Of a stretch of DNA of 41,792 nucleotides, positions 5,186 through 29,161 are shown in pieces (within the stretch, counting starts at the first letter, position 1; the number at the start of each line of letters is the position of its first letter). Location of the stretch: contig DATIRX010000218.1 in the NCBI GenBank assembly GCA_035469225.1, positions 1 through 41,792 on the forward strand. Direction: 5' to 3'. The notes beneath the pieces are model-generated. The model did no database searches. It worked only from the letters and a program-made list of their open reading frames with translations, and had not been told where the DNA came from. The position numbers and the translations under genes were made by a program. This DNA is from Bryobacteraceae bacterium. GTDB lineage: Bacteria > Acidobacteriota > Terriglobia > Bryobacterales > Bryobacteraceae.

Positions 5186-5202
<17 letters not shown>
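5008..5202 (+). CDS. Possible small single-TM protein (64 aa)
   Basis: This is the only ORF downstream of the 4863 promoter. It has a hydrophobic N-terminus (SLLSAVGAALVLLALVV) followed by a basic tail. Its 3' end overlaps the convergent kinase gene by 17 nt. Support is weak. Confidence 0.25.
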
Positions 5203-7774
<2,572 letters not shown>

Positions 7775-7779
7775 CGGAT

Positions 7780-9132
7780 CTAAGGACGCAGCCGATCGAA
7801 GTAATCCAGGAGCGCATCGCGGCCGGCGTCGTCGATGCGGGCGCCCCAGCCGGTCATTTTATTGATCTCGGCGGTCCACTGCGCGCGCGTGAGGCGCTGC
7901 TGCCGGATGACGTCGTCGTTATGACAGAGCAGGCAATTGTTAAATGCAGCGGGCGGCCGTTGGGAAGCGTAGGCTTGCTCAGGAATCGCCGGCTTTGGAA
8001 CTGCGCTTCCCACGTTCACGTGCACGCGCTGAACCGCGTTCCAGAGATATCCGGACTGGTTCCATTCCTGATCCAGCGGCTGGGTGTTCCCCGCTGCATC
8101 GCGCGCCCGAGCCAGAATCGTAAAGTACGAAGCTTGCTGCGGAGTCCAGGCGAATTCCCACTGTCGCCAGCCGAAGCGTGTCCGCTGGCTGGCAATTAGA
8201 GACGCCGGCTTCCACACACGTCCGCCATCGATGCTGACGTCGACGGCAGCAACCGGATCGGCTCCCCAAGCCATCCCGCGAATCATCGTGGGGCTGCCGG
8301 GATCGAGCTGCGCGCCATCCAGCGGAGACGCGATGACGCTCTTGACCCGCAGGTTGGTGACCGGCCGCATGCGATCCAGAGGCACGGCGACGCCCGGAGC
8401 GACGGGCCGGCCGGGGTGGCGGTATGCGCTCTTCATCCAGAAGCCGTCGTGTTCCTGGTCGAGAACGCGGATGGACGTCAGCCACTTGGTCCAGGAATCG
8501 CCGGCCCAGCCGGGCGCCACGACGCGCAAGGGGAATCCATGTTTTACCGGCAGCGCCTCGCCGTTCATGTCGTATGCCAGAAGCGTGTTAGGGTCGAGTG
8601 CTTTTTCGAGCGGAAGCGAACGCTGGAAGTCCGGCATGCTGCCCAGGGGCACATCGGCGCCGTCCAAAAGGATTTCGCGGGCGGAAGCTTTCAGGCCGGC
8701 GCGTTTGAGCACGTCGGCCAGACGAACTCCGCGCCAGCGCGCATTCCCCACGGCTCCGTGGCCCCATTGCAGGCCGGGGACAGGAGGCTCAAAGAAAGCC
8801 CGCCCGTTTCCGGCGCATTCGAGCACGCTGACGAGTTCCGCCGCGGGCAGCCGTTTCAGATCATCCAGGGTCAGAGCCAGAGGCGACGCGACGGAGCCGC
8901 CTACGTTCAGACGCCATTCGCTGAGGTTGACCGTGGGAACGTAGACGTGCGCGCGAACGAAAAAATGTTCGGCTGGAGTGAGGTAGTCCGAAAAGCCGGA
9001 CAGCGGCATTTCGAGATCCTCCGGGCGGACCGAGCGACTGAGCATGTCGCGCTTGGGACGATCTTCCCCTCGAAGCACGGCAGCAGCGGCGGCGAGGAAC
9101 AGGAAGTCACGGCGGCGGAGGCGCACGCACAT
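7780..9132 (-). CDS. Tat-exported sulfite-oxidase-family molybdopterin oxidoreductase with a C-terminal haem c domain
   Basis: The chosen ATG at 9132 gives MCVRLRRRDFLF, a twin-arginine signal. The Mo-ligand Cys motif is LECAGNGR and the C-terminal haem motif is CLLCH. The 70 extra upstream codons in the ORF track overlap thrC and are rejected. Confidence 0.85.
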   Translation of the reverse strand: MCVRLRRRDFLFLAAAAAVLRGEDRPKRDMLSRSVRPEDLEMPLSGFSDYLTPAEHFFVRAHVYVPTVNLSEWRLNVGGSVASPLALTLDDLKRLPAAELVSVLECAGNGRAFFEPPVPGLQWGHGAVGNARWRGVRLADVLKRAGLKASAREILLDGADVPLGSMPDFQRSLPLEKALDPNTLLAYDMNGEALPVKHGFPLRVVAPGWAGDSWTKWLTSIRVLDQEHDGFWMKSAYRHPGRPVAPGVAVPLDRMRPVTNLRVKSVIASPLDGAQLDPGSPTMIRGMAWGADPVAAVDVSIDGGRVWKPASLIASQRTRFGWRQWEFAWTPQQASYFTILARARDAAGNTQPLDQEWNQSGYLWNAVQRVHVNVGSAVPKPAIPEQAYASQRPPAAFNNCLLCHNDDVIRQQRLTRAQWTAEINKMTGWGARIDDAGRDALLDYFDRLRP

Positions 9133-9142
9133 ATTGTAAACG

Positions 9143-10321
9143 TCAGGCCTGCGTGCGCGTTGCGTAAGCGTCGAGGTACTTGAGGCCCGAGCCCGTATTG
9201 TAGAGAACGATGCGGTCGGTGGGCGCGAGGAATCCATTCGCGAGAAGCTTGCGGGCAGCTGGGATGCAGGCCGCGCCTTCAGGAGCCGCGAACACCCCTT
9301 CGCGCGATGCGAGCTCGCGGCCGCCCGCCAGAATGTCTTCATCGCTGACGGCGATCGCCGTGCCCGCGCTCGCGCGGAGGATGTTCAGAATGAGCACGTC
9401 GCCCAGCGGCTTGGGAACGCGCAAACCCGCGGCCGCGGTGGAGGCGTTCTGCCAGAATTCGGAATGGGACGCGTTCTGCTCGAAGGCGCGGACGATGGGC
9501 TGGCAGCCTTCCGCCTGAACCGCGATCATCTTCGGGCGCTCACCGCCGATCCAGCCCAGCTGTTCGAGCTCGTCGAAGGCTTTCCACATGCCAATCAGTC
9601 CGACACCTCCTCCGGTGGGATAAAAGATGGCATCGGGCAGCTCCCAGTGGAACTGTTCGGCGACTTCATAACCCATGGTCTTTTTGCCTTCGACCCGATA
9701 GGGCTCCTTGAGCGTGCTCATATCGAACCAGCCTTCGCTTTCCTTACGCTCGCCGACGATGCGGGCGCAATCGCTGATGAGACCGTCCACCAGGGTCACG
9801 TGCGCGCCCAGCGTCTGGCATTCGATGTAATTGGCCTGGGGAACATCTTTCGGCATGAAAATGTGGGCTTCGATTCCACCGGCCGCGGCATAGGCGGCTG
9901 CGGCGCTGGCGGCGTTGCCGGCTGAGGGAATGGCGATCTTGCGGATACCCAGCTCTCGCGCCATGGTGATCGCCGTGGTCATGCCCCGGGCTTTGAAAGA
10001 TGCGGTGGGATTGAGGCCCTCGTCCTTCACCCACAACTGTTGCGCGCCTATCCCAGATCCCAAACGATGTGCCCGGATCAGCGGCGTCATGCCTTCCCCG
10101 AGAGAAACAATCGAGGCCGCGTGTTGCACCGGAAGAACGGGCAGATAGCGCCACAGATCCGTGCGCGCGGATCGCACCATCTCGCGGGTCCACGTGGCTT
10201 TCACCGCGGGAAGATCGTAGCGGACGTACAGCGTCCCGCCGCAGGCGCACAAGTTGTGCACCTGGTTGGCCGCCCAGCGGCGGGCGCACAGGCTGCATTC
10301 CAGATGAGTGACGTTAGGCAT
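9143..10321 (-). CDS. thrC: Threonine synthase (short form with N-terminal zinc ribbon)
   Basis: CSLCARRW...CACGG Cys4 ribbon, PLP-lysine motif SFKARGM, and SAGNAASAAAAYAA, as expected for the PLP fold type II family. Confidence 0.85.
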   Translation of the reverse strand: MPNVTHLECSLCARRWAANQVHNLCACGGTLYVRYDLPAVKATWTREMVRSARTDLWRYLPVLPVQHAASIVSLGEGMTPLIRAHRLGSGIGAQQLWVKDEGLNPTASFKARGMTTAITMARELGIRKIAIPSAGNAASAAAAYAAAGGIEAHIFMPKDVPQANYIECQTLGAHVTLVDGLISDCARIVGERKESEGWFDMSTLKEPYRVEGKKTMGYEVAEQFHWELPDAIFYPTGGGVGLIGMWKAFDELEQLGWIGGERPKMIAVQAEGCQPIVRAFEQNASHSEFWQNASTAAAGLRVPKPLGDVLILNILRASAGTAIAVSDEDILAGGRELASREGVFAAPEGAACIPAARKLLANGFLAPTDRIVLYNTGSGLKYLDAYATRTQA

Positions 10322-12302: not shown

Positions 12303-14564
12303 ATGGGCGAGGTGCATCGCGCTCGCGACACGCGCCTGGGCCGGACGGTAGCGATCAAAGTCCTGCCGCATGACAAGCTGGCAGATCCCGAACGGAAGCG
12401 CCGGTTTCTGCAGGAAGCGCGTGCCGCCTCGGCGCTCAATCATCCCAACATCGTTACGTTGTACGACATTTCGAGCCAGGGGGATATCGACTTTCTGGTG
12501 ATGGAGTACGTGCCCGGCAAAGCGCTCGACCGCATGATTCCTCCCGGGGGAATGGCGGCGGCCGATGTGCGGGTATATGCGATCCAGATGGCCGGTGCGC
12601 TGGCCGCGGCCCATGCGGCGGGAATCGTCCATCGCGATTTGAAACCGGCGAACATGATCGTAACGCCGGAGGGGCAGGTGAAGGTGCTGGACTTCGGCTT
12701 GGCCAAACTGGCTGGGCCGGAGCACGGAGATCCTTCAGGGGATACGCGCACCATCGGACCGTCGCTCACCGAAACCGGCGTGGTGATGGGCACCGTGGGG
12801 TACATGTCGCCGGAGCAGGTGCGCGGCGAGGAGGCGGATCACCGCAGCGATATTTTCTCGCTGGGCTGCGTGCTGTACCAGATGGTGACGTCGCACCCGC
12901 CCTTCACCCGGCACACGGCGGCCGAGACCATGGCGGCGATTTTGCGCGACGATCCTGCGCCCCCCGGGAAGCCGATTCCCGCGGATTTAGAGCAGACCAT
13001 CCGGCGGGCGCTTGAAAAAAATCCGGCGGCGCGGTTCCAGAACGCCGGGGACCTGGGCGCTGCCCTGAAACGCGAACCCCGCGCGGAAGAGTCCCGGCCC
13101 GCCCGTCGATATCTGATCGCCGGAGCGGGCGCGGCGGTACTGCTGGCGGCCGCTGGAACATGGTGGCGGCGAAGCACGGGCGCGGCGCAAATCGATTCGC
13201 TGGCCGTGCTGCCGCTGACCAATGCGACGGGTGATCCGGCCAACGACTACGTCGCCGAAGGCATCGCGGAAAGCGTGATCAATCGCCTGTCCCAAACCAA
13301 GCTGAAGGTCACCGCGCGGGCCACGGCCTTCCGGATTCAGACCAGGGACTTCGATCCGGTGGCGGTCGGCAAGCAGCTCAACGTAGGCGCCGTGATGACC
13401 GGAAGAGTCACCAAGCAAGGCGACCAGCTGGTGGTCCAGACCGAACTGGTGAACGCATCCGATGGGACCCAGATGTGGGGCGACCGGTTTATTCGTCCGC
13501 TGGCGCAGATGCAGTTGTTCGAAGAAGAGATTTCGAAAAACATCGCCGAGACGCTGCGCTTGCGGCTGACACAGACGGAGAATCTGCAGTTCGCTAAACA
13601 CGACACCACCGATCCGGAAGCCTACAAGGCGTATCTGCAGGGGCAGTTTTACTGGAACAAGTACACCGACGAAGGCTTCGTCAAGGCAATCGAGTACTTC
13701 ACGACTGCCACGCAGAGGGATTCGAGTTATGCCCGGGCTTATGCCGGGCTTGCTCACGCGTACGGAATTCAGGCGGCCGATGTTTACCGGCCGCCTCGAG
13801 AGGTGATGCCCCAAGCGAAAGCCGCCGCGGAAACGGCCCTGCGGCTGGACGATGGCCTGGCGGAAGCGCATACGTCACTGGGTATCTACAACCTGTTCTA
13901 CGCCTGGGACTGGCCCGCGGCGGGGCGGGACTTTCAGCGGGCGCTGGCGCTCGACCCGAAGAGTTCGGACGCGCTCCACTTTTATAGCCACTATCTGGAA
14001 TCGCAGGGGCAGACGCAGGAAGCGATTTCCGTCATGAAACGCGCCGTGGATCTGGATCCGCTGTCGCTGATCATCAACAACGAATATGGCTACGCCTTGT
14101 ACATGGGGCGGAAGTTTCCCGACGCACACCGGGCTTGGCAAAGAGGGGTTGAACTAGATCGGAGCTTCGTCCTGTCTCAAATGGAACTGGCGCAGGCTCT
14201 GGAGCGATTGGGCCGATACGATGACGCCATCGAGGCGGTGAAGAGAGCGCTCCAGGTGGAGGCTTCCTCGAGTAATCAGATCGAGCTGGCCTGCGCCTAC
14301 GCGGCGGCCGGCAAACAATCAGAAGCCCGCAAGGTCCTGGAGCAGGTGAAGGAACTCAGCTCGCGGGAATTCGTCGACTTCGGAATGGTGGCGTACGCGT
14401 ACGCGGAACTCCATGATACGGAGGAAACCTTCCGGTGGCTCGAAAGAGCGTATGAGCAGCGGTCCACAACGTTGGTCATGCTCCAGGTGGAAGCCAAGTT
14501 CGATCCCGTACGGTCCGACCGGCGGTTCGGGGCATTTCTGCAGCGAATGAAGCTTACCGGCTGA
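12303..14564 (+). CDS. Ser/Thr protein kinase with TolB-N-like segment and TPR repeats; true start probably lies upstream of the first ATG
   Basis: VAIK, HRDLKPANMI, DFGLAK and SPEQ are present. The in-frame upstream codons 12228-12302 encode LGPYKIEAPLGAGG, the glycine-rich loop, but contain no ATG, GTG or TTG. Confidence 0.85.
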   Translation: MGEVHRARDTRLGRTVAIKVLPHDKLADPERKRRFLQEARAASALNHPNIVTLYDISSQGDIDFLVMEYVPGKALDRMIPPGGMAAADVRVYAIQMAGALAAAHAAGIVHRDLKPANMIVTPEGQVKVLDFGLAKLAGPEHGDPSGDTRTIGPSLTETGVVMGTVGYMSPEQVRGEEADHRSDIFSLGCVLYQMVTSHPPFTRHTAAETMAAILRDDPAPPGKPIPADLEQTIRRALEKNPAARFQNAGDLGAALKREPRAEESRPARRYLIAGAGAAVLLAAAGTWWRRSTGAAQIDSLAVLPLTNATGDPANDYVAEGIAESVINRLSQTKLKVTARATAFRIQTRDFDPVAVGKQLNVGAVMTGRVTKQGDQLVVQTELVNASDGTQMWGDRFIRPLAQMQLFEEEISKNIAETLRLRLTQTENLQFAKHDTTDPEAYKAYLQGQFYWNKYTDEGFVKAIEYFTTATQRDSSYARAYAGLAHAYGIQAADVYRPPREVMPQAKAAAETALRLDDGLAEAHTSLGIYNLFYAWDWPAAGRDFQRALALDPKSSDALHFYSHYLESQGQTQEAISVMKRAVDLDPLSLIINNEYGYALYMGRKFPDAHRAWQRGVELDRSFVLSQMELAQALERLGRYDDAIEAVKRALQVEASSSNQIELACAYAAAGKQSEARKVLEQVKELSSREFVDFGMVAYAYAELHDTEETFRWLERAYEQRSTTLVMLQVEAKFDPVRSDRRFGAFLQRMKLTG

Positions 14565-19044: not shown

Positions 19045-19596
19045 TTAGAGTCTATCAGGCCCGTTCGAAGGAGTGCCTAGAGGGAGCCCTGGGTAGGTAA
19101 CCAATTCACCTTCCACCCTCGCGAAAGGCGTGTAGGCATGAGGTTTCCGGCTGGCGGCGCTGAGAATGTGTTGGACTTCGATCCCCCGCGCCGCCAAAGC
19201 ATCGGCGATCAGCGAGCGGTGACATCGCCAGGGGACTGCTTCCGCGCACATGATCACGGTCGGGCAAGCGGCTGCGAGATCGATGAGCTTGGCCAGACCC
19301 TCCCGGAAGCCGTCTGTCTGCATGTAATCGGCGTAGCCTCGAAAGCTGGCGTTCTTCCAGCCGGTATTGATGGAGTCCTTCCGGGCGTGCCGGAGCCCGC
19401 CCAGACCGGGCAGATGCACGTACTGAATTCCCTGCTGCCCGAGCGAAGCCGCCAGTTCATCCTGCCCGAATTGAGGATTCCGGCGCGATTTCGGAATCGT
19501 GCGGACATCGATGAGCTGCCGGATGCCATGCGCCCCCAGTATTTCGAGGAATTTCTCGATGGGAAGCGTCGAGTGGCCGATGGTGAAGATCGTCAG
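19045..19596 (-). CDS. DUF488 family protein, probably initiating at CTG 19596
   Basis: The ORF track starts at GTG 19419 (124 aa). However, the same frame stays open up to 19647 and encodes the canonical DUF488 N-terminus (L/M)TIFTIGHSTLPIEKFLEILGAHGIRQLIDVRTIPKSRRNPQF. Confidence 0.6.
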   Translation of the reverse strand: MTIFTIGHSTLPIEKFLEILGAHGIRQLIDVRTIPKSRRNPQFGQDELAASLGQQGIQYVHLPGLGGLRHARKDSINTGWKNASFRGYADYMQTDGFREGLAKLIDLAAACPTVIMCAEAVPWRCHRSLIADALAARGIEVQHILSAASRKPHAYTPFARVEGELVTYPGLPLGTPSNGPDRL

Positions 19597-20336
19597 GGTT
19601 TTACTACCGTGCGCAGATACGAAAGAATCGCCCCCAACTCGGCGTCGCTATAGGAACCGATCACGCCCGAGTGCCGCCAGGTGCTGCCGTCTCGCGTTTG
19701 AACCGTCGCAGGCGATTCGGTTCGCAGCACGGGAGGCGAGCTGGTGAGATCGTAAAACAGCACCGAGCCGGCTTTCTTGCCGACCACCAGGGCAGGCATG
19801 GATTCGCTGCCGATGCTGACGGTGGAAACCTGCGGAGTAGCAAGCGCTTTTAGCGCCGCGGCATCGAAGGGCACTTTGGCGATGGGTGTCGCGACGGCGA
19901 TACCGAGCCCTCCGATCTCATGACAGGTCGAGCAGCGGCCAAAGCCGCGGACAGCGTCCGAGAACAGAGCACGGCCGCGGGCGGCGTCGCCTGTCAGCTT
20001 CGCGGCAGGTGCGCCCGGGGGGCCGCTGTTTGCTACGAGATTCGCAATACCGTTGAGGGACGCCACATAGGCCACCACGGCCGTGGCGTCCGCCCGGGAA
20101 AGCGTGGTTCCAAACGCGGGCATGGCCGTTCCGGGAACGCCGTTGCGGACCGTGTTGGCGATAAAGGCTTGATCGAATCCGCGGGCGGCAATGCGCGGCG
20201 CTCCGCCGTTGGTTCCCCGAGCGCCGTGGCAGTATCCGGTGGCGCAGGACTTTTGGAACACCGCCTCACCCTGCTTGACGATGTCCTGTGCGGGGGTGAG
20301 CACGGCTACCGCCAGAAACAACCAGCCGCGCTTCAT
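19593..20336 (-). CDS. Exported two-domain c-type cytochrome
   Basis: The internal ATG at 20336 gives the signal peptide MKRGWLFLAVAVLTPAQ. Haem motifs are CATGYCH (CX4CH) and CSTCH, with GTAMPAF as a candidate Met-ligand motif. ATGA overlap with the PQQ dehydrogenase stop codon. Confidence 0.75.
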   Translation of the reverse strand: MKRGWLFLAVAVLTPAQDIVKQGEAVFQKSCATGYCHGARGTNGGAPRIAARGFDQAFIANTVRNGVPGTAMPAFGTTLSRADATAVVAYVASLNGIANLVANSGPPGAPAAKLTGDAARGRALFSDAVRGFGRCSTCHEIGGLGIAVATPIAKVPFDAAALKALATPQVSTVSIGSESMPALVVGKKAGSVLFYDLTSSPPVLRTESPATVQTRDGSTWRHSGVIGSYSDAELGAILSYLRTVVKP

Positions 20337-22021
20337 CGCGATCCCTCCGGCAAGGCAAATACGACTAACGTGGACCCCTGGCGGAAGCTCTCTTCGGGAA
20401 AGAGCCCGACGGCCGCGCCTCCGACCAATGACTGCTGGAATCCGGTGGTCACCGCGATGTATTGCCGGCCGTTGACCGAGTAGGAGATCGAGCTGCCGCG
20501 GTTCCCGGCGCCGGTCTGGAAGCTCCACAGCTTGTTGCCGCTGCGGGCATCCAATGCGAAGAAGTTGCCTTCAGGATCGCCGGTGAAGACCAGATCGCCG
20601 GCCGTGGCGAGCATGGACGACATCAGAACGAACTTGTAAGGCAGACTCCAGATGCGCTTGCCGGTGACGGGATCCCAAGCGTCCACATGACTGTAGGTAG
20701 TGCGGTTGGGCGGGAGCTTCATGGGGAAATCGCCATTCATGAAGAAGCGGCCCTCGCTGGGCTTGGTGTCGTTAGGCGTGATGTCGGTGCAGATTTCGTT
20801 GGTGGGCGTGTAGAGAAATCCGGTACGCGGCGAGTAGGCCATGGAGTTCCAGCTCTTGGCGCCGGCCGCGCTGGGACAGAAGTTCTTCGTTTTGCCCATC
20901 TCGGGCTCATTGCGGCCGACCAGCTTGCCGTCTTCGGTGACGCCCGAGATCCAGTTGGAAATCTCTGGCACGTTGAAGGAGCTGAGAAATTCTCCGGTGA
21001 CGCGGTCGAACACGAACGTCAGGCCGCTCTTGTTCATGTGAACCAGGATCTTGCGCATCTGGCCTTTGATCTGACGATCCATTAAGAGGACTTCGTAGGA
21101 GGCATCGAAATCCCAGACGTCGTCGGGAACCTCCTGGAAATACCAGCGCAGCTTGCCGGTGTCGGCGTCGAGCGCGACCATGCTGGCGGTGTAGAGGTTG
21201 ACGTCCTTGGATTTGTTAGTACCCGCCGCGACGCGGTCGGCGTCGTAGAAATCCGCTGCGGCGTTGCCGGTCCCCCAATAGACCAGGTTGAGGTCGGGAT
21301 CGAAGGAGCCGGTGAGCCAGGGCGAGCCGCCGCCGAAGCGCCAGCTATCCCCTTTCCATGTTTCATGGCCCTTTTCGCCGGGACCGGGCACGACATACCA
21401 GCGCCAGGCCGAGCGGCCGGTCTTCGTGTAGAAGGCGGTGAGATAGCCTCGATGCGCCTGATCGCCGCCGTTGCCGCCGACGATCACCTTGTCCTTGACG
21501 ATGAGGGGGGCGCCGGTGATGTTGCAGCCGCACTGCTTGGGATCGTCCACGCTGACTTTCCAGACTTCCCGGCCGGTTTTCTGGTCGAGCGCTACGACGA
21601 AGTTATCTTTCGTTCCGAAGATGACCTTTCCATCGCCGACGGCGACCCCGCGATTCTGAATGAAATCGGAGTGGCTGCCGGCGATGCCGGGACGCACGGC
21701 GGGATAGCGGTACTGCCAGATCACGGTCCCCTTGGCGGCATCCAGCGCGAAGACGCGCGCGCCGGCGGAGATGAGATACAGGACGCCATCGGCCACGATA
21801 GGCGTGGAGCCGAGGTTCTCCGTGTAGTCTCCGGTTTGGAAGATCCAGGCGGGAAGCAGGTTTTTGACGTTGGATGTATTGACCTGATCGAGCGCGCTAT
21901 AGCGCCAGGAGAATTGCGTGCCGCCATAATGCGGCCAGTCGGCACGCGTGGGCGCGGCGTCCTGGGCGGAGAGCGGCACCAGGATCGGCGCAAGGATGAG
22001 CAGCGAGTTCAATAGACGCAT
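20333..22021 (-). CDS. PQQ-dependent dehydrogenase, methanol/ethanol family-like, exported
   Basis: Signal peptide MRLLNSLLILAPILVPLSAQ. Eight-bladed propeller W-motif repeats. Catalytic region DVWDFDAS. N-terminus reads DWPHYGGTQFSWRYSALDQVN. Confidence 0.85.
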   Translation of the reverse strand: MRLLNSLLILAPILVPLSAQDAAPTRADWPHYGGTQFSWRYSALDQVNTSNVKNLLPAWIFQTGDYTENLGSTPIVADGVLYLISAGARVFALDAAKGTVIWQYRYPAVRPGIAGSHSDFIQNRGVAVGDGKVIFGTKDNFVVALDQKTGREVWKVSVDDPKQCGCNITGAPLIVKDKVIVGGNGGDQAHRGYLTAFYTKTGRSAWRWYVVPGPGEKGHETWKGDSWRFGGGSPWLTGSFDPDLNLVYWGTGNAAADFYDADRVAAGTNKSKDVNLYTASMVALDADTGKLRWYFQEVPDDVWDFDASYEVLLMDRQIKGQMRKILVHMNKSGLTFVFDRVTGEFLSSFNVPEISNWISGVTEDGKLVGRNEPEMGKTKNFCPSAAGAKSWNSMAYSPRTGFLYTPTNEICTDITPNDTKPSEGRFFMNGDFPMKLPPNRTTYSHVDAWDPVTGKRIWSLPYKFVLMSSMLATAGDLVFTGDPEGNFFALDARSGNKLWSFQTGAGNRGSSISYSVNGRQYIAVTTGFQQSLVGGAAVGLFPEESFRQGSTLVVFALPEGSR

Positions 22022-23957: not shown

Positions 23958-24338
23958 TTACTTGCCGGCTTCGGCCTTGAGCTGCTGCACCAGCGGAATT
24001 TCCTTGGCTTCCGGCGAATCCGGCAGCGTTTTGATATACGCCCAGATGTCGGCCAGCTGCGCGTCCGACAGAACCTTCGCCGAGTACGACGGCATCTGAT
24101 TGGTGCCCGGAGAGCGCACGTATGCGGTGAACACCGGCGCCAACATCTTCATCGGAACCAGCCGCTTGCCCGGACCGTTCTGACCTGAAAATCCGTGGCA
24201 GGCGTAGCAGCTGTAATCGACAAACATTTTGCCGCCTTTTTTCGCGTCGCCCTGCTGTCCGTAGGCGGCCACCGTCAGCATCGCCAGGGCGGCCGCGGGC
24301 GCAAGCATTCCGAATACCAGCTTCTTCATAAGTCTCAT
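23958..24338 (-). CDS. Exported monohaem class I cytochrome c (126 aa)
   Basis: Signal peptide MRLMKKLVFGMLAPAAALAMLTVAAYG, haem motif CYACH, and distal Met candidate NQMPSY. The ATG overlaps the stop codon of the ThDP enzyme gene (ATGA). Confidence 0.75.
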   Translation of the reverse strand: MRLMKKLVFGMLAPAAALAMLTVAAYGQQGDAKKGGKMFVDYSCYACHGFSGQNGPGKRLVPMKMLAPVFTAYVRSPGTNQMPSYSAKVLSDAQLADIWAYIKTLPDSPEAKEIPLVQQLKAEAGK

Positions 24339-26239
24339 CCTCGCGGCTGCGTCACTACGTCGATCAATACAGGCTCGCCCTTCTTCACCCGCTCGATGCC
24401 GCGCTGGAGGGCCGGAGCAAGATCCTTCGGATCCGTAATGGGACCCTCCGCGTATAGCCCATAGCCTTTGGCGATCGACGCGTAGTTGATGTCCGGATCC
24501 CACAGCTTGGTCCCGATCCCGGCCCGCTCCGCGCCGCGATTGTGGACGCTGGCCATCTGCTCGACGAACATCACTTCCTGGTGGTAGCCGCGGTTGTTGT
24601 GCATGATGCTCAAGAGCGGAATGCGATGGTGCGCCGCAGTCCAGAACACACCGGGCGAATAGTTGAAATCGCCGTCGGTCTGGATGTTGATCGAGAGCCG
24701 TCCATATTTGCGATTGGCCAGCGCGGCCCCCACCGAAGCGGGAGCGCCGTAACCCATGCCGCCGGCTCCCTGGCCGCCGATGTAGTGATAATGCTTCTCC
24801 ATGTTCCAAAGGCGATTCGGCCAATTGGCGACAAAACCCTGCGGCGATACGAACGACCAGTCTTCGTTCTTGATCAGCGGCCACAGCTCGGCGGCGATGC
24901 GCCCCACGCTCACCGGGCTCGCGTTCCAGCCATACTGGAGGGCTTCCACATCCGCCTCGCGATTCTTGCGATGCGCCTCGGCAAACTTCGCGCCGCGATC
25001 CTTGAACGCACGCTGGCGGTCCGCGGTGATCAGCTTCTTGCAGGCCTCGATCAGATACGGCAAAGTGGCCTCGGCATCCGCGCCGATATCCAGATCGATG
25101 TCCGCGTAATGCCCGAAATCCTGGATATTGCTCTTGTGCGCCAGCGAAACGGAAGAAATGTGGATAACCTTGCCGTTGGCCGGACGCGCGGTGCGAGCCA
25201 CCTGGAGAATGTCCTGGACCTCCAGCGCCAGCGTGAGATCGGGCTGATATCCCGCGCCGCCGTTGCCTGCCAGCGGATGGCGGTTGGGAAAGTTCATGCG
25301 CTCGCGATTGTTGACCGGCGCCTGCAGAAGTTCCGCCAGCTCGATCAGGAGCTTGACACCTTCCGGAGTGCGGGCGTAGCGCTCCGGGATGATCATGGGA
25401 CGCTCTGCCGCCACCAGCATCCGCGCGGCTTCCGCCACCGCGCCCATATCGCCCGCCGGAGGCGACGTCAGCACCAGCTTGGGAATGCGCGGGCGCTGCC
25501 CTTCCATCGCATGCGACTGGATTTCGTTGCTGGCCACGATCAGCACGGGGCCCATGGGCGGCGTCATCGCGATTTTGTAGGCGCGCACCGCGGACTCGGC
25601 GAATGCGCCCAGTGAATACGGCTGGTCGTCCCACTTGGTGTAATCGCGAACCAGGGCGCCCAAATCCTGCGCGCTGTGGAAGGTCTGAACGCCGGGGTTG
25701 CGCTCGGCGCCATCGGCGTGATTACCCACCACCATATAGACCGGCACGCGATCGCAATAGGCGTTATAAATCGCCATGCCGGCGTGCTGCAGGCCGATGT
25801 CGCCGTGGATCAGCGCCATCATGGGCTTGCCCTCTACCTTGGCGTAGCCGTGGGCCATGGCTACGGCGTTCTCCTCGTGGGTGCAGGTGAGGAACTCCGG
25901 CATTTTGTTGTCGCCGTAATTGATCAGCGATTCGTGCAGCGATTCGAAGGTGGACCCGGGGTTGGAGCCGAGATATTCGATGTTGAGCGTCTTCAGCACG
26001 TCGACCATGAAGTCGGAGCCGGGGTTTTCGATGATGCGGGAGCTGGCTGCCGGGCGCGCTGCGCCGGTTTCGCGCGCCACGGCCGCTCCGCTGGGAGCCT
26101 GGGCGCCTCTTGGCGCCGGCTGCTGGGCCCTTTCTTGAGCATGGGCGAGTTGGGGCTTCGCAGCCAAAACGGCTGCTCCCGCTGCCGCACCTTTCAAGAA
26201 ACCGCGACGTCCGACGGAAGGTTTTGTGGACTTAGCCAT
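24335..26239 (-). CDS. Tat-exported thiamine diphosphate-dependent enzyme (acetolactate synthase/pyruvate oxidase superfamily)
   Basis: Tat signal SVGRRGFLKGAAAGAAVLAAKPQLAHA, catalytic-Glu motif THEENAVAMAHGYA, and ThDP-Mg motif TDGDFNY...IMHNN. Confidence 0.85.
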   Translation of the reverse strand: MAKSTKPSVGRRGFLKGAAAGAAVLAAKPQLAHAQERAQQPAPRGAQAPSGAAVARETGAARPAASSRIIENPGSDFMVDVLKTLNIEYLGSNPGSTFESLHESLINYGDNKMPEFLTCTHEENAVAMAHGYAKVEGKPMMALIHGDIGLQHAGMAIYNAYCDRVPVYMVVGNHADGAERNPGVQTFHSAQDLGALVRDYTKWDDQPYSLGAFAESAVRAYKIAMTPPMGPVLIVASNEIQSHAMEGQRPRIPKLVLTSPPAGDMGAVAEAARMLVAAERPMIIPERYARTPEGVKLLIELAELLQAPVNNRERMNFPNRHPLAGNGGAGYQPDLTLALEVQDILQVARTARPANGKVIHISSVSLAHKSNIQDFGHYADIDLDIGADAEATLPYLIEACKKLITADRQRAFKDRGAKFAEAHRKNREADVEALQYGWNASPVSVGRIAAELWPLIKNEDWSFVSPQGFVANWPNRLWNMEKHYHYIGGQGAGGMGYGAPASVGAALANRKYGRLSINIQTDGDFNYSPGVFWTAAHHRIPLLSIMHNNRGYHQEVMFVEQMASVHNRGAERAGIGTKLWDPDINYASIAKGYGLYAEGPITDPKDLAPALQRGIERVKKGEPVLIDVVTQPRG

Positions 26240-26283: not shown

Positions 26284-26312
26284 ATCGTAGTTTTGCGGGC
26301 GGTGGGTGTCAA
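26284..26312 (-). promoter_or_regulatory. Sigma70-like promoter TTGACA-17-TACGAT for the ThDP enzyme/cytochrome c operon
   Basis: On the minus strand, TTGACA corresponds to plus-strand 26307-26312 and TACGAT to 26284-26289, with an exact 17-nt spacer. An AGGGGGA Shine-Dalgarno sequence lies 9 nt before the ATG at 26239. Confidence 0.45.
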
Positions 26313-26395: not shown

Positions 26396-27496
26396 CTAGT
26401 TCCCGTTCAACGGAAATCGCTTAGGATAAGCCCATCTAAGGTCGTCAGCGTGCTCTGGGGTCATCCGAGACTTCACGTCTTCCAGCCAGCCGAGGAAAGC
26501 ATCCATGTTCTCAACGCTGAAAACTTTGCATCCAAAGTCCTGTTCAACCCTGACCCGTTGGTCGTTCATGAGTCTTGCCATGGCCTTATCTGTAAAGTAG
26601 CCGTCGCAATATGGAGCGTAGGTAGCGGCATGCTCGATGTCGGAGAAAAACCCGGAGAGCTTGTCTCGTGTCTTCCTTGACGTGGGGTCAGGTTTCGTCC
26701 AACTCGAACGCAGGCTCTGTCTGTAGGCACTGAACAATCGAGCCGATAATTGCACGGTCGGGACTTCTGTAAAGTGTTGTGCCCTAAAAAATCCGCCGAT
26801 TACTGCAGGGTCCATTCCCTCCGCCTTAACTACACGCCACATGTCTTCCACAACCGAGGCCCTCACCGGTGAATCTATCAGGGCAGAAAAGTCCCCCGTC
26901 ATAAGCCGGGCGGTTTTGGTCGTATAGCTATCGATCAAAACCCGCGCAGTATCGTTAATCTCCAGCTCCATGTCGTCTTCAAACGTCCGGGCCTTGTTTG
27001 CCCATTGGGGCAACACCTTCAAGAGTTCATCAAGAGCCTGTTGCTTGTGCATGGATCTGCGGTCTACATCCCTCGCCGCGCTAAAGACGCTAACTGAGTA
27101 ATCGCCATCCCAATCGTGAACGCTGGGACATAACGCGTCACGTTCCTCTTTCTGATACGTCGCCGCTGCGTTTTCCAAGTAGGCATGGAACGCTTTCAAA
27201 ATCTGTATTTCTTCGACGCGCCAATATGGTTCGAAGTGATGGCCCCTGGCTACTCCCTGAATAAACTGCACCAGCGCGTCCCGATACTCACCGTTCAAAT
27301 CAGCCTCGGCTACATGAGTGAAAGAATAGGGAATCGCCAGCAACTGCAGGTCGAGTAATTCCTTCACCTTTGCCATCGGCACCGTCGCCCATTCATTCGC
27401 AGCACCTCCTCTCTGAACAGAAGAAAAGAAATTCTGATCGAGATATAGAATGCTCTTAAGCGTTTGATTCCCGAGCATTTGTTTTGTAACAAGCAT
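26396..27496 (-). CDS. Orphan hypothetical protein (366 aa) in a low-GC patch; split PIN-like motifs
   Basis: Long ORF with no recognisable family. Sampled 60-mers are 50-55% GC, against about 65% for the flanks. The motifs are ILYLDQNFF, SFTHVAE, and FSDIEHAATYAPYCDGYFTDKAM. Confidence 0.65.
   Translation of the reverse strand: MLVTKQMLGNQTLKSILYLDQNFFSSVQRGGAANEWATVPMAKVKELLDLQLLAIPYSFTHVAEADLNGEYRDALVQFIQGVARGHHFEPYWRVEEIQILKAFHAYLENAAATYQKEERDALCPSVHDWDGDYSVSVFSAARDVDRRSMHKQQALDELLKVLPQWANKARTFEDDMELEINDTARVLIDSYTTKTARLMTGDFSALIDSPVRASVVEDMWRVVKAEGMDPAVIGGFFRAQHFTEVPTVQLSARLFSAYRQSLRSSWTKPDPTSRKTRDKLSGFFSDIEHAATYAPYCDGYFTDKAMARLMNDQRVRVEQDFGCKVFSVENMDAFLGWLEDVKSRMTPEHADDLRWAYPKRFPLNGN

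Positions 27497-27781: not shown

Positions 27782-29161
<1,380 letters not shown>

What the first reader, a model, noticed from the sequence alone, without database searches (positions are those of the whole stretch)
23958..26239. Tat-exported thiamine-diphosphate enzyme translationally coupled to a periplasmic cytochrome c
The 634-aa ThDP-family protein has the catalytic Glu motif HEENAVAMAHGYA and the ThDP-Mg motif GDF...NN. It starts with a textbook twin-arginine signal (SVGRRGFLKGAAAGAAVLAAKPQLAHA) followed by a Pro/Ala/Gln-rich linker. Its stop codon overlaps (ATGA, 24335-24338) the start of a 126-aa signal-peptide monohaem cytochrome c (CYACH). The pair has its own TTGACA-17-TACGAT promoter. 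Characterised ThDP enzymes of this superfamily (acetolactate synthase, pyruvate oxidase, benzoylformate decarboxylase and others) are cytoplasmic. A periplasmic ThDP enzyme that hands electrons to a c-type cytochrome would be a new kind of periplasmic 2-oxoacid or aldehyde oxidation module.
Basis: partly seen in the sequence, partly recalled or inferred. Interest (0 to 1): 0.75.

Follow-up and report, generated by a model that had tools for sequence, protein, structure and literature searches.

The report
Periplasmic thiamine enzyme with cytochrome partner
A thiamine-diphosphate enzyme of a normally cytoplasmic family carries an export signal for the periplasm and is almost always encoded next to its own small cytochrome c, in hundreds of soil bacteria, pointing to an undescribed kind of periplasmic oxidation enzyme.

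Summary
Window 24335-26239 (-) encodes a 634-aa ThDP enzyme with a consensus twin-arginine signal, a disordered linker, the catalytic Glu and the GD(F)-X-NN motif. A Sec-signal monohaem cytochrome c follows. One correction: its start is most likely the second ATG (24329, 123 aa), 5 nt after the stop, not the ATGA overlap.

The pairing is not a one-off:
- All full-length relatives down to about 42% identity carry the RR signal and form one clade. The signal-less relatives (41% identity or less) form the sister clade.
- In 79 genome loci holding 88 genes, mostly Acidobacteriota, 69 genes have a CxxCH gene directly downstream.
- The pair recurs in Rhizorhabdus wittichii RW1, in Pseudomonadales and Verrucomicrobiia genome bins, and in further metagenome and long-contig loci.
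- Enzyme and cytochrome co-diverge (r = 0.77), and duplicated pairs keep their own cytochromes.

The middle domain lacks the FAD/ADP-binding motifs of pyruvate oxidase and acetolactate synthase and resembles benzoylformate decarboxylase. No Cys is conserved.

Best reading: a Tat-exported, probably flavin-free ThDP enzyme that oxidises a carbonyl substrate and reduces its dedicated cytochrome c. The redox step and the substrate are inferred. Nine literature searches found no description.

The parts
24335..26239 (-). Gene for the 634-aa Tat-signal ThDP enzyme (benzoylformate-decarboxylase-like branch of the ThDP decarboxylase superfamily)
   Evidence: ORF. Pfam TPP_N, weak TPP_M and TPP_C. NCBIfam best hit PRK08327 at 253 bits (cut-off 456), then BFD. 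PDB best hits BFD-like 4q9d, BAL and ALS. AlphaFold pTM 0.80; Foldseek BAL/GCL/BFD/AHAS, TM 0.65-0.72.
26138..26239 (-). Twin-arginine signal peptide, residues 1-34 (VGRRGFLKG, h-region GAAAGAAVLAA, AHA|Q cleavage site)
   Evidence: Sequence. The RR motif is present in 115 of 120 close homologues, in all full-length representatives at 42% identity or more, and in 107 of 112 members of the RW1-type subclade.
26030..26137 (-). Variable Ala/Pro/Gln/Arg-rich linker (residues 35-70) with a semi-conserved ARE(T/N)G motif
   Evidence: pLDDT below 50 for residues 1-51 and 58-67. Variable in length and sequence among homologues.
25700..26020 (-). PYR (N-terminal ThDP) domain; the catalytic Glu122 codon is at 25874-25876
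   Evidence: Pfam PF02776, residues 74-180. H121-E122 invariant. E122 is at least 93% conserved across both clades.
25205..25438 (-). Middle domain (part matched by Pfam), without FAD/ADP-binding motifs
   Evidence: Weak PF00205 match. Alignment with E. coli PoxB, Gcl, IlvI, IlvB and Oxc shows IIPERY in place of GxG, LEVQD in place of G(V/A)RFDDR, and ISSVS plus a KSNxQDF insert in place of (I/V)DIDP.
24356..24832 (-). PP (C-terminal ThDP/Mg) domain; the GDF-X22-NN motif is at 24593-24673
   Evidence: Pfam PF02775, residues 470-628. D522, G523, D524, N548 and N549 invariant.
23958..24329 (-). Gene for the 123-aa monohaem class I cytochrome c (an alternative in-frame start at 24338 gives 126 aa). 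Sec signal at residues 1-24 (24258-24329), CYACH at 24195-24209, Met79 at 24093-24095
   Evidence: Pfam Cytochrome_CBB3 and Cytochrom_C. Homologues are 123 aa and begin MKKL. CY.CHG, MP and IPLL are conserved in 58 partner cytochromes.
24338..24342 (-). GAGGA Shine-Dalgarno-like site inside the 3' end of the ThDP gene, 8 nt before the ATG at 24329
   Evidence: Read from the sequence. Stop-to-start spacing of 2-14 nt is typical of related loci.
26284..26312 (-). Promoter-like TTGACA-17-TACGAT site, 45 nt upstream of the ThDP start
   Evidence: Consensus scan, 10 of 12 matches. Not conserved in relatives. Function unverified.

Best explanation
This is a self-contained two-gene periplasmic module.

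Export. The ThDP enzyme folds, dimerises and binds ThDP-Mg2+ in the cytoplasm. ThDP active sites are built from two subunits. The Tat pathway then exports it and the signal is cleaved after AHA. The small cytochrome c is exported by Sec and receives its haem in the periplasm.

Catalysis. In the periplasm the enzyme attacks a carbonyl substrate with the ThDP ylide. The substrate is a 2-oxo acid, or possibly an aldehyde or an alpha-hydroxyketone/diketone, and gene neighbourhoods hint at plant- or lignin-derived aromatics. This forms the enamine/carbanion intermediate, with loss of CO2 in the 2-oxo acid case. Instead of protonating it and releasing an aldehyde, as benzoylformate decarboxylase does, the enzyme has the intermediate oxidised in two one-electron steps by the dedicated cytochrome c. 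The resulting acyl-ThDP is hydrolysed to a carboxylic acid. The reduced cytochrome feeds the aerobic respiratory chain.

Electron path. No FAD/ADP-binding motifs and no conserved cysteines are present. The electron path is therefore most likely direct, from ThDP to haem.

Shown versus inferred.
- Shown: the ThDP catalytic motifs, the conserved Tat signal, the conserved and co-evolving cytochrome partner, and the absence of flavin motifs.
- Inferred: export itself, the redox coupling, the direct electron path and the substrate class.
For: - Tat signal conserved: 115 of 120 close homologues, every full-length representative down to 42% identity, and 107 of 112 in the proteobacterial subclade.
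- The Tat-bearing sequences form one clade. The signal-less ones (41% identity or less) form the sister clade.
- Cytochrome c lies directly downstream of 69 of 88 genes in 79 genome loci. Two more have it directly upstream.
- The same pair occurs in R. wittichii RW1, a Pseudomonadales MAG and four further divergent loci.
- Apart from the cytochrome, no neighbour is conserved in more than 10 of the 79 loci.
- Pairwise divergence of enzyme and partner cytochrome correlates: r = 0.77, with 0 of 999 permutations reaching that value. Tandem paralogous pairs each keep their own diverged cytochrome.
- Catalytic Glu and the GD-X-NN motif are invariant.
- FAD/ADP motifs are absent and BFD-like motifs (RxxFPxRHP, WTAAxH) are present. 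No Cys is invariant.
- Precedent for a Tat-exported enzyme from an 'oxidase' family that uses a dedicated periplasmic cytochrome c: NicA2/CycN (bioRxiv 10.64898/2026.08.27.747611).
Against: - No biochemical precedent is known to me for a ThDP intermediate oxidised directly by a c-type haem.
- The closest solved relatives (BFD, BAL, carboligases) are non-redox.
- About 11 of 88 genes have no cytochrome c nearby, and some loci have two ThDP genes for one cytochrome.
- Absence of flavin is argued from missing motifs in an alignment, not from a structure with ligand.
- No expression, localisation or activity data exist.
- The substrate is unknown.
Confidence: 0.55

Rival explanations
1. The enzyme is a non-oxidative periplasmic ThDP decarboxylase or lyase (BFD- or BAL-like). 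The co-transcribed cytochrome c serves another periplasmic dehydrogenase, for example a PQQ alcohol/aldehyde dehydrogenase acting on the aldehyde product, and not the ThDP enzyme itself.
For: The closest solved and curated relatives are BFD and BAL. No flavin motifs are present. PQQ dehydrogenase genes lie on the same strand in 10 of 79 loci, directly adjacent in L022, L043 and L078, and one lies 2 kb away in the window.
Against: The cytochrome, not a dehydrogenase, is the conserved neighbour: 69 of 88 genes against 10 of 79 loci. It is tightly spaced, co-diverges with the enzyme, and is duplicated together with it. The pair also stands alone in Proteobacteria with no dehydrogenase gene nearby.
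Confidence: 0.2
2. The enzyme is a pyruvate-oxidase-like flavo-ThDP dehydrogenase. It binds FAD or another redox cofactor in a non-canonical way, and the flavin relays electrons to the cytochrome.
For: All known two-electron oxidising members of this superfamily (POX, PoxB) use FAD (established knowledge). The three-domain fold is retained, and Foldseek also matches the FAD-binding GCL and AHAS.
Against: Four sequence motifs shared by the E. coli FAD/ADP binders are all replaced or deleted in the whole clade: GxG after beta1, the G-rich loop, G(V/A)RFDDR, and (I/V)DIDP. The Pfam middle-domain match is below threshold and partial.
Confidence: 0.12
3. The cytochrome c acts as electron donor or as a regulatory or redox-sensing partner, rather than as the acceptor of substrate electrons. 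An example would be a reductive ThDP reaction or redox activation of the enzyme.
For: Only the gene linkage itself. The direction of electron flow cannot be read from sequence.
Against: Class I monohaem cytochromes c have high potentials, whereas ThDP enamine/acyl couples are strongly reducing (established knowledge). That makes cytochrome-to-ThDP electron flow unfavourable. Known periplasmic enzyme and small cytochrome c pairs run enzyme-to-cytochrome.
Confidence: 0.06
4. The RR motif is not a working export signal and the protein stays cytoplasmic. The cytochrome neighbour is then a coincidence of gene order.
For: No localisation data exist. Export cannot be tested with these tools.
Against: The RRxFLK consensus, the h-region and the AxA site are conserved, while the linker that follows varies freely. 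This holds across roughly 40-94% identity and at least two phyla. The signal-less relatives form a separate clade. The adjacency is far too regular to be chance.
Confidence: 0.03

Closest known systems
Benzoylformate decarboxylase / benzaldehyde lyase branch of the ThDP decarboxylase (DC) superfamily, and the uncharacterised NCBIfam PRK08327 'thiamine pyrophosphate-requiring protein' group
   Same: Three-domain PYR-middle-PP fold, catalytic Glu and GD-X-NN motif. A middle domain without a nucleotide-binding signature. Shared RxxFPxRHP and WTAAxH motifs.
   Different: About 20% identity to solved structures. It scores below the curated cut-offs of both NCBIfam models (253 against 456; 149 against 493). 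It has a 70-residue N-terminal Tat signal plus linker, a KSNxQDF insert and a dedicated cytochrome c gene. The known members are cytoplasmic and non-redox.
Pyruvate oxidase / PoxB (ThDP + FAD; electrons to O2 or quinone)
   Same: Same superfamily. The proposed chemistry, oxidation of the ThDP-bound enamine to acyl-ThDP, is the same.
   Different: PoxB binds FAD and sits on the cytoplasmic face of the membrane. Here the FAD motifs are missing, the protein carries an export signal, and the inferred acceptor is a soluble cytochrome c.
2-oxoacid:ferredoxin oxidoreductases (PFOR/OFOR)
   Same: They oxidise the ThDP intermediate by one-electron steps without flavin, passing electrons to a metal centre about 13 A away (established knowledge).
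   Different: Unrelated domain architecture, Fe-S clusters, cytoplasmic, CoA-dependent, with ferredoxin as acceptor. Here there are no conserved cysteines.
Periplasmic dehydrogenase plus dedicated small cytochrome c pairs: NicA2/CycN, PQQ methanol or ethanol dehydrogenase with cytochrome cL/c550, SorAB sulfite dehydrogenase
   Same: Same genetic and cellular logic. A cofactor-loaded enzyme is exported (by Tat for NicA2 and SorA), an adjacent monohaem cytochrome c is the physiological acceptor, and electrons go to the respiratory chain (for NicA2/CycN).
   Different: The catalytic cofactor there is FAD, PQQ or molybdenum. A ThDP enzyme in this role has not been described in anything I could find.

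Membership tests
ThDP-dependent decarboxylase (DC/POX) superfamily | N-terminal PYR domain with the catalytic glutamate that activates the ThDP aminopyrimidine | tested here: met
   PF02776 at 2e-19, residues 74-180. HEE with E122 is invariant in 16 diverse members and at least 93% conserved across 76 sequences.
ThDP-dependent decarboxylase (DC/POX) superfamily | C-terminal PP domain with the GDG-X(24-27)-NN ThDP-Mg motif | tested here: met
   PF02775 at 1e-25. D522-G523-D524 and N548-N549 are invariant. The third residue is F/L/M instead of G.
ThDP-dependent decarboxylase (DC/POX) superfamily | Three-domain fold | tested here: met
   AlphaFold pTM 0.80. Foldseek matches BAL 2uz1 at 6e-32 (TM 0.71-0.81), and GCL, BFD and AHAS similarly.
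ThDP-dependent decarboxylase (DC/POX) superfamily | Actual binding of ThDP and catalysis | not testable with these tools
   Needs purified protein.
FAD-dependent members (pyruvate oxidase, AHAS, glyoxylate carboligase) | Nucleotide-binding motifs of the middle domain: GxG after beta1, a G-rich loop, G(V/A)RFDDR, and (I/V)DIDP | tested here: not met
   L-INS-i alignment with E. coli PoxB, Gcl, IlvI, IlvB and Oxc shows all four motifs replaced or deleted in the window protein and in 6 Tat-clade and 6 sister-clade members.
NCBIfam PRK08327 (NF006203) and benzoylformate decarboxylase (NF005485) equivalogs | Score above the curated whole-protein cut-off | tested here: not met
   253 bits against a cut-off of 456; 149 bits against 493. 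It is a relative of these families, not a member.
Tat (twin-arginine) substrates | N-terminal S/T-R-R-x-F-L-K motif, a moderately hydrophobic h-region and an AxA cleavage site | tested here: met
   VGRRGFLKGAAAGAAVLAAKPQLAHA|Q. Conserved across the clade. NCBI itself names several homologues 'twin-arginine translocation signal domain-containing protein'.
Tat (twin-arginine) substrates | Tat-dependent export of the folded protein | not testable with these tools
   Needs fractionation, reporter fusions or tat mutants. TatP and SignalP are not available here.
Class I c-type cytochromes | Sec signal peptide, a single CxxCH and a distal Met ligand in a domain of about 100 aa | tested here: met
   PF13442 at 1e-8 and PF00034 at 3e-7. 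CYACH, and NQMP with Met79; CY.CHG and MP are conserved in 58 partners. 120 of 120 homologues have one CxxCH.
Periplasmic dehydrogenase / dedicated cytochrome c redox pairs | Conserved adjacent genes and co-evolution of the two partners | tested here: met
   69 of 88 genes have the cytochrome downstream. The pair is present in Acidobacteriota, Alpha- and Gammaproteobacteria and a Verrucomicrobiia MAG. Mirror-tree r = 0.77.
Periplasmic dehydrogenase / dedicated cytochrome c redox pairs | Substrate-dependent electron transfer from enzyme to cytochrome | not testable with these tools
   Needs enzymology. No model coordinates or complex prediction could be obtained here.

The most novel reading that the evidence does not exclude
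This would be a fourth way of oxidising the ThDP-bound enamine, beside lipoamide (2-oxoacid dehydrogenase complexes), flavin (pyruvate oxidases) and iron-sulfur clusters (PFOR). It would be a flavin-free, periplasmic ThDP:cytochrome c oxidoreductase. The thiazolium-bound intermediate would hand single electrons directly to a docked c-type haem. Soil Acidobacteriota and Proteobacteria would use it, in many paralogues, to burn carbonyl compounds outside the cytoplasm.
Probability: 0.4. Interest if true: 0.85.

Novelty: new variant of a known kind. Interest (0 to 1): 0.72.

Why it matters
As far as I know, ThDP enzymes of this superfamily are cytoplasmic. They either do non-redox chemistry or need FAD to pass electrons on.

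A large, conserved clade is exported with its cofactor by Tat and is genetically welded to a private cytochrome c. It occurs in at least 590 stretches among GTDB species genomes and often in several copies per genome. Three consequences follow:
1. It would add ThDP to the short list of periplasmic redox cofactors (PQQ, Mo, flavin, haem, Cu).
2. It would imply a new electron path out of a ThDP intermediate.
3. It would reveal an unrecognised route of extracytoplasmic carbon oxidation in Acidobacteriota, one of the most abundant and least understood soil phyla.

These genes are at present annotated as 'acetolactate synthase large subunit'. That annotation is almost certainly wrong and would mislead metabolic reconstructions.

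The hypothesis is directly testable, because a cultured, genetically tractable bacterium carries the pair: Rhizorhabdus wittichii RW1, protein ABQ67889.1.

Tried and rejected
- Literature. Nine full-text searches combined thiamine/ThDP/TPP, Tat/twin-arginine, periplasm, cytochrome c, Acidobacteria, wittichii and diketogluconate. None found a paper on such an enzyme.
- Natural fusions. I looked for ThDP-cytochrome fusions as 'Rosetta stone' evidence. The three candidates (P0251, P0350, P0372) retain the cytochrome's own signal peptide inside the chain, so they are read-through or frameshift artefacts.
- Hybrid gene. Close relatives have ThDP-A / ThDP-B / cytochrome c. I tested whether the window gene is a deletion hybrid of the two. 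It is A-type along its whole length (86-98% against 39-80% identity per 60-column block of the alignment), so this is rejected.
- Sister clade. I looked for a partner that might reveal the chemistry of the signal-less clade. The two contigs found were too short or uninformative.
- Other neighbours. I searched 79 loci for a conserved third gene. None occurs in more than 10 loci. PQQ dehydrogenases (10 loci) and tannase/feruloyl-esterase genes (7 loci) recur only locally. Neighbours of cytochrome-less paralogues were heterogeneous.
- Promoter. The upstream regions do not align with those of relatives.
- RNA elements. Rfam found nothing in the window, including no TPP riboswitch before thiC. No tRNAs were found.
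- Complex prediction. I considered a fused-chain AlphaFold prediction of the enzyme-cytochrome complex. I dropped it because the tool returns neither coordinates nor inter-chain error, so no haem-to-ThDP distance could be read.
- Clade-specific residues. Comparing the Tat clade with its sister clade showed little beyond the signal peptide and N371.
Full report
WHAT IS THERE. On the minus strand, 24335-26239 encodes a 634-aa protein. Pfam finds the N-terminal (residues 74-180) and C-terminal (470-628) ThDP-binding domains. The central domain matches only weakly and below threshold. The catalytic HEE (E122) and the TDGDF...HNN ThDP-Mg motif are present and are invariant in diverse relatives.

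The first 34 residues, MAKSTKPSVGRRGFLKGAAAGAAVLAAKPQLAHA, match the Tat consensus with an AxA cleavage site. About 35 residues of low-complexity linker follow, which AlphaFold leaves disordered.

Directly downstream lies a small cytochrome c with a Sec-type signal, one CYACH and an NQMP methionine ligand.

The ATGA overlap exists. However, homologues are 123 aa and start MKKL. A GAGGA sits 8 nt before the second ATG. In related loci the cytochrome starts 2-14 nt after the ThDP stop. The start is therefore most likely 24329, 5 nt after the stop.

The promoter-like site at 26312-26284 is a 10-of-12 consensus match and is not conserved in relatives. The ThDP start codon is well supported, because conservation among relatives begins exactly at ATG-GCN-AAR.

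IS IT MORE THAN A ONE-OFF? Yes, on five counts.
- Close homologues. Of the 120 closest (at least 70% identity; Bryobacteraceae and other Acidobacteriota from metagenomes), 115 carry RRGFLKG. The five that lack it are N-terminally truncated sequences or have a different called N-terminus. NCBI's pipeline already labels some as 'twin-arginine translocation signal domain-containing protein'.
- Representatives. An exhaustive search of 1.84 billion representatives gave 997 hits at E of 1e-30 or better. Every full-length representative at 42% identity or more has the RR signal plus a 60-70 residue extension. Those at 41% or less (560-610 aa) start right at the PYR domain. In a neighbour-joining tree the two groups are separate clades. 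The signal is thus a clade-defining gain.
- Genome loci. The best 79 loci are 77 Acidobacteriota MAGs (Bryobacterales, Vicinamibacterales, Terriglobia, Acidiferrales), one alphaproteobacterial MAG and one Verrucomicrobiia MAG. These loci hold 88 ThDP genes. Nearly all carry the signal, and the exceptions look like frameshifts or truncations.
- Cytochrome neighbour. Of the 88 genes, 69 have a CxxCH gene directly downstream. Two have it directly upstream, two are cut by a contig end, and about 11 have none nearby.
- Other lineages. The pair recurs in Rhizorhabdus wittichii RW1 (45% identity; ABQ67889.1), a Pseudomonadales MAG and four other divergent loci. In the RW1-type subclade, 107 of 112 full-length proteins have the RR motif.

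No other neighbour is conserved in more than 10 loci, so the unit is these two genes.

FUNCTIONAL LINKAGE. Across 58 pairs, divergence of the enzyme and of its partner cytochrome correlates. Pearson r is 0.77 and 0 of 999 permutations reach that value. Genomes with tandem copies keep a separate, diverged cytochrome for each enzyme copy: enzymes differ by about 36% and cytochromes by 50-56%. The pair was therefore duplicated and maintained as a unit. Variants exist. The closest relative (93% identity, syntenic, including thiC and the M50 peptidase gene) has two Tat-ThDP genes before one cytochrome. The window has only the first of these and is not a hybrid.

WHAT KIND OF ThDP ENZYME. The best curated model is PRK08327 at 253 bits (cut-off 456), then benzoylformate decarboxylase. 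The best solved relatives are a BFD-like protein (4q9d), benzaldehyde lyase and catabolic acetolactate synthase. Foldseek matches the whole superfamily about equally, at roughly 20% identity.

I aligned the protein with E. coli PoxB, Gcl, IlvI and IlvB (FAD binders) and Oxc (ADP binder), using sequences fetched. The Tat clade and its sister clade lack all four motifs those proteins share:
- the GxG after the first strand (here IIPERY);
- the glycine-rich loop (deleted);
- G(V/A)RFDDR (here LEVQD);
- (I/V)DIDP (here ISSVS plus a KSNxQDF insert).

No cysteine is conserved. The enzyme is thus probably flavin-free and has no Fe-S cluster.

MECHANISM. ThDP is made in the cytoplasm, and ThDP active sites form at a dimer interface (established knowledge). 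Export of a pre-folded, cofactor-loaded dimer is exactly what Tat is for.

In the periplasm, a small monohaem cytochrome c encoded next to an exported enzyme is normally that enzyme's electron acceptor. Examples are PQQ dehydrogenases, SorAB and NicA2/CycN.

I therefore propose that the ThDP-bound enamine, formed from a 2-oxo acid, aldehyde or alpha-dicarbonyl, is oxidised in two one-electron steps by the cytochrome, and that the acyl-ThDP is hydrolysed to an acid. Without flavin, the transfer would be direct from ThDP to haem. It would be comparable in principle to PFOR, where an Fe-S cluster takes single electrons. This step is inference, and I put the oxidative reading at about 0.55 and the flavin-free direct path at about 0.4.

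SUBSTRATE. Unknown. Neighbourhoods hint at plant or aromatic compounds and outer-membrane uptake:
- tannase/feruloyl esterase genes upstream in 7 Bryobacterales loci;
- PQQ dehydrogenases on the same strand in 10 loci;
- Rieske dioxygenase, hydrolase and CoA ligase genes in RW1;
- LigB and LigXa-type Rieske genes in L093;
- an Amidohydro_2 gene and TonB receptors in L094 and L095.

Together with the BFD/BAL-like features, this makes aromatic 2-oxo acids or aldehydes a reasonable first guess, at low confidence.

COMPARISON AND NOVELTY. The protein is a member of the ThDP decarboxylase superfamily: the PYR, PP and fold features were tested and met. It does not meet the tests for the FAD-dependent subgroup or for the PRK08327 and BFD equivalogs. 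It works, I infer, like the periplasmic dehydrogenase-cytochrome pairs. Nine full-text searches found no description, and databases call these genes acetolactate synthase. I rate it a new variant of a known kind. It would become categorically new if the direct ThDP-to-haem path is confirmed.

LIMITS.
- No signal-peptide predictor, no model coordinates and no complex prediction were available.
- The tree is neighbour-joining with midpoint rooting.
- The co-divergence statistic partly reflects shared ancestry of linked genes, though the paralogue result does not.
- Only the best 79 genome loci were inspected.

Noticed in passing
window 27794-29161 (+): thiC (phosphomethylpyrimidine synthase, thiamine biosynthesis; 747 bits) lies 1.5 kb from the ThDP-enzyme gene. 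Rfam finds no TPP riboswitch upstream of it, even at E = 1. thiC is also next to the orthologous ThDP gene in the closest relative (L092).
   Followed up: partly
window 19593-22021 (-): A PQQ-dependent methanol/ethanol-family dehydrogenase (20333-22021) is followed by a cytochrome c. Its first haem site reads CATGYCH (CX4CH, an unusual spacing) and its second reads CSTCH. This is a second periplasmic dehydrogenase-cytochrome pair, 2 kb from the ThDP pair.
   Followed up: no
window 7780-9342 (-): A SorA-like sulfite dehydrogenase (332 bits, below the equivalog cut-off) with a C-terminal SorB-like cytochrome c domain fused to it.
   Followed up: no
window 26396-27496 (-): A 366-aa ORF directly upstream of the ThDP gene has no hit in Pfam or NCBIfam. 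It is not present at the corresponding place in the syntenic relative L092.
   Followed up: partly
L092 8001-12291; L093 8001-12195; L008 5925-10404: In close relatives, two tandem Tat-signal ThDP genes (about 60% identical to each other) precede a single cytochrome c. The window has only the first gene. This raises the possibility of hetero-oligomeric enzymes or of shared use of one cytochrome.
   Followed up: partly
L080 7465-8001 (R. wittichii RW1, CP000699.1): A 178-aa predicted multi-pass membrane protein overlaps the start of the ThDP gene (ATGA-type junction) in RW1 and in a second assembly (L081). It is absent from the acidobacterial loci. It could be a membrane anchor or partner in Proteobacteria.
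   Followed up: no
window 26030-26137 (-) and homologues: Within the otherwise variable linker after the Tat signal, a short motif (L/V)ARE(T/N)G is kept in most acidobacterial homologues. Its role is unknown.
   Followed up: no
window 23958-25634 (-): The cytochrome reading frame stays open for 558 codons upstream, across the ThDP gene. This is a high-GC artefact and not a gene. Several database 'fusion' proteins (P0251, P0350, P0372) arise from the same kind of read-through.
   Followed up: yes
window 5186-7774 (-) and 12303-14564 (+): Two Ser/Thr protein kinases with C-terminal TPR repeats.
   Followed up: no
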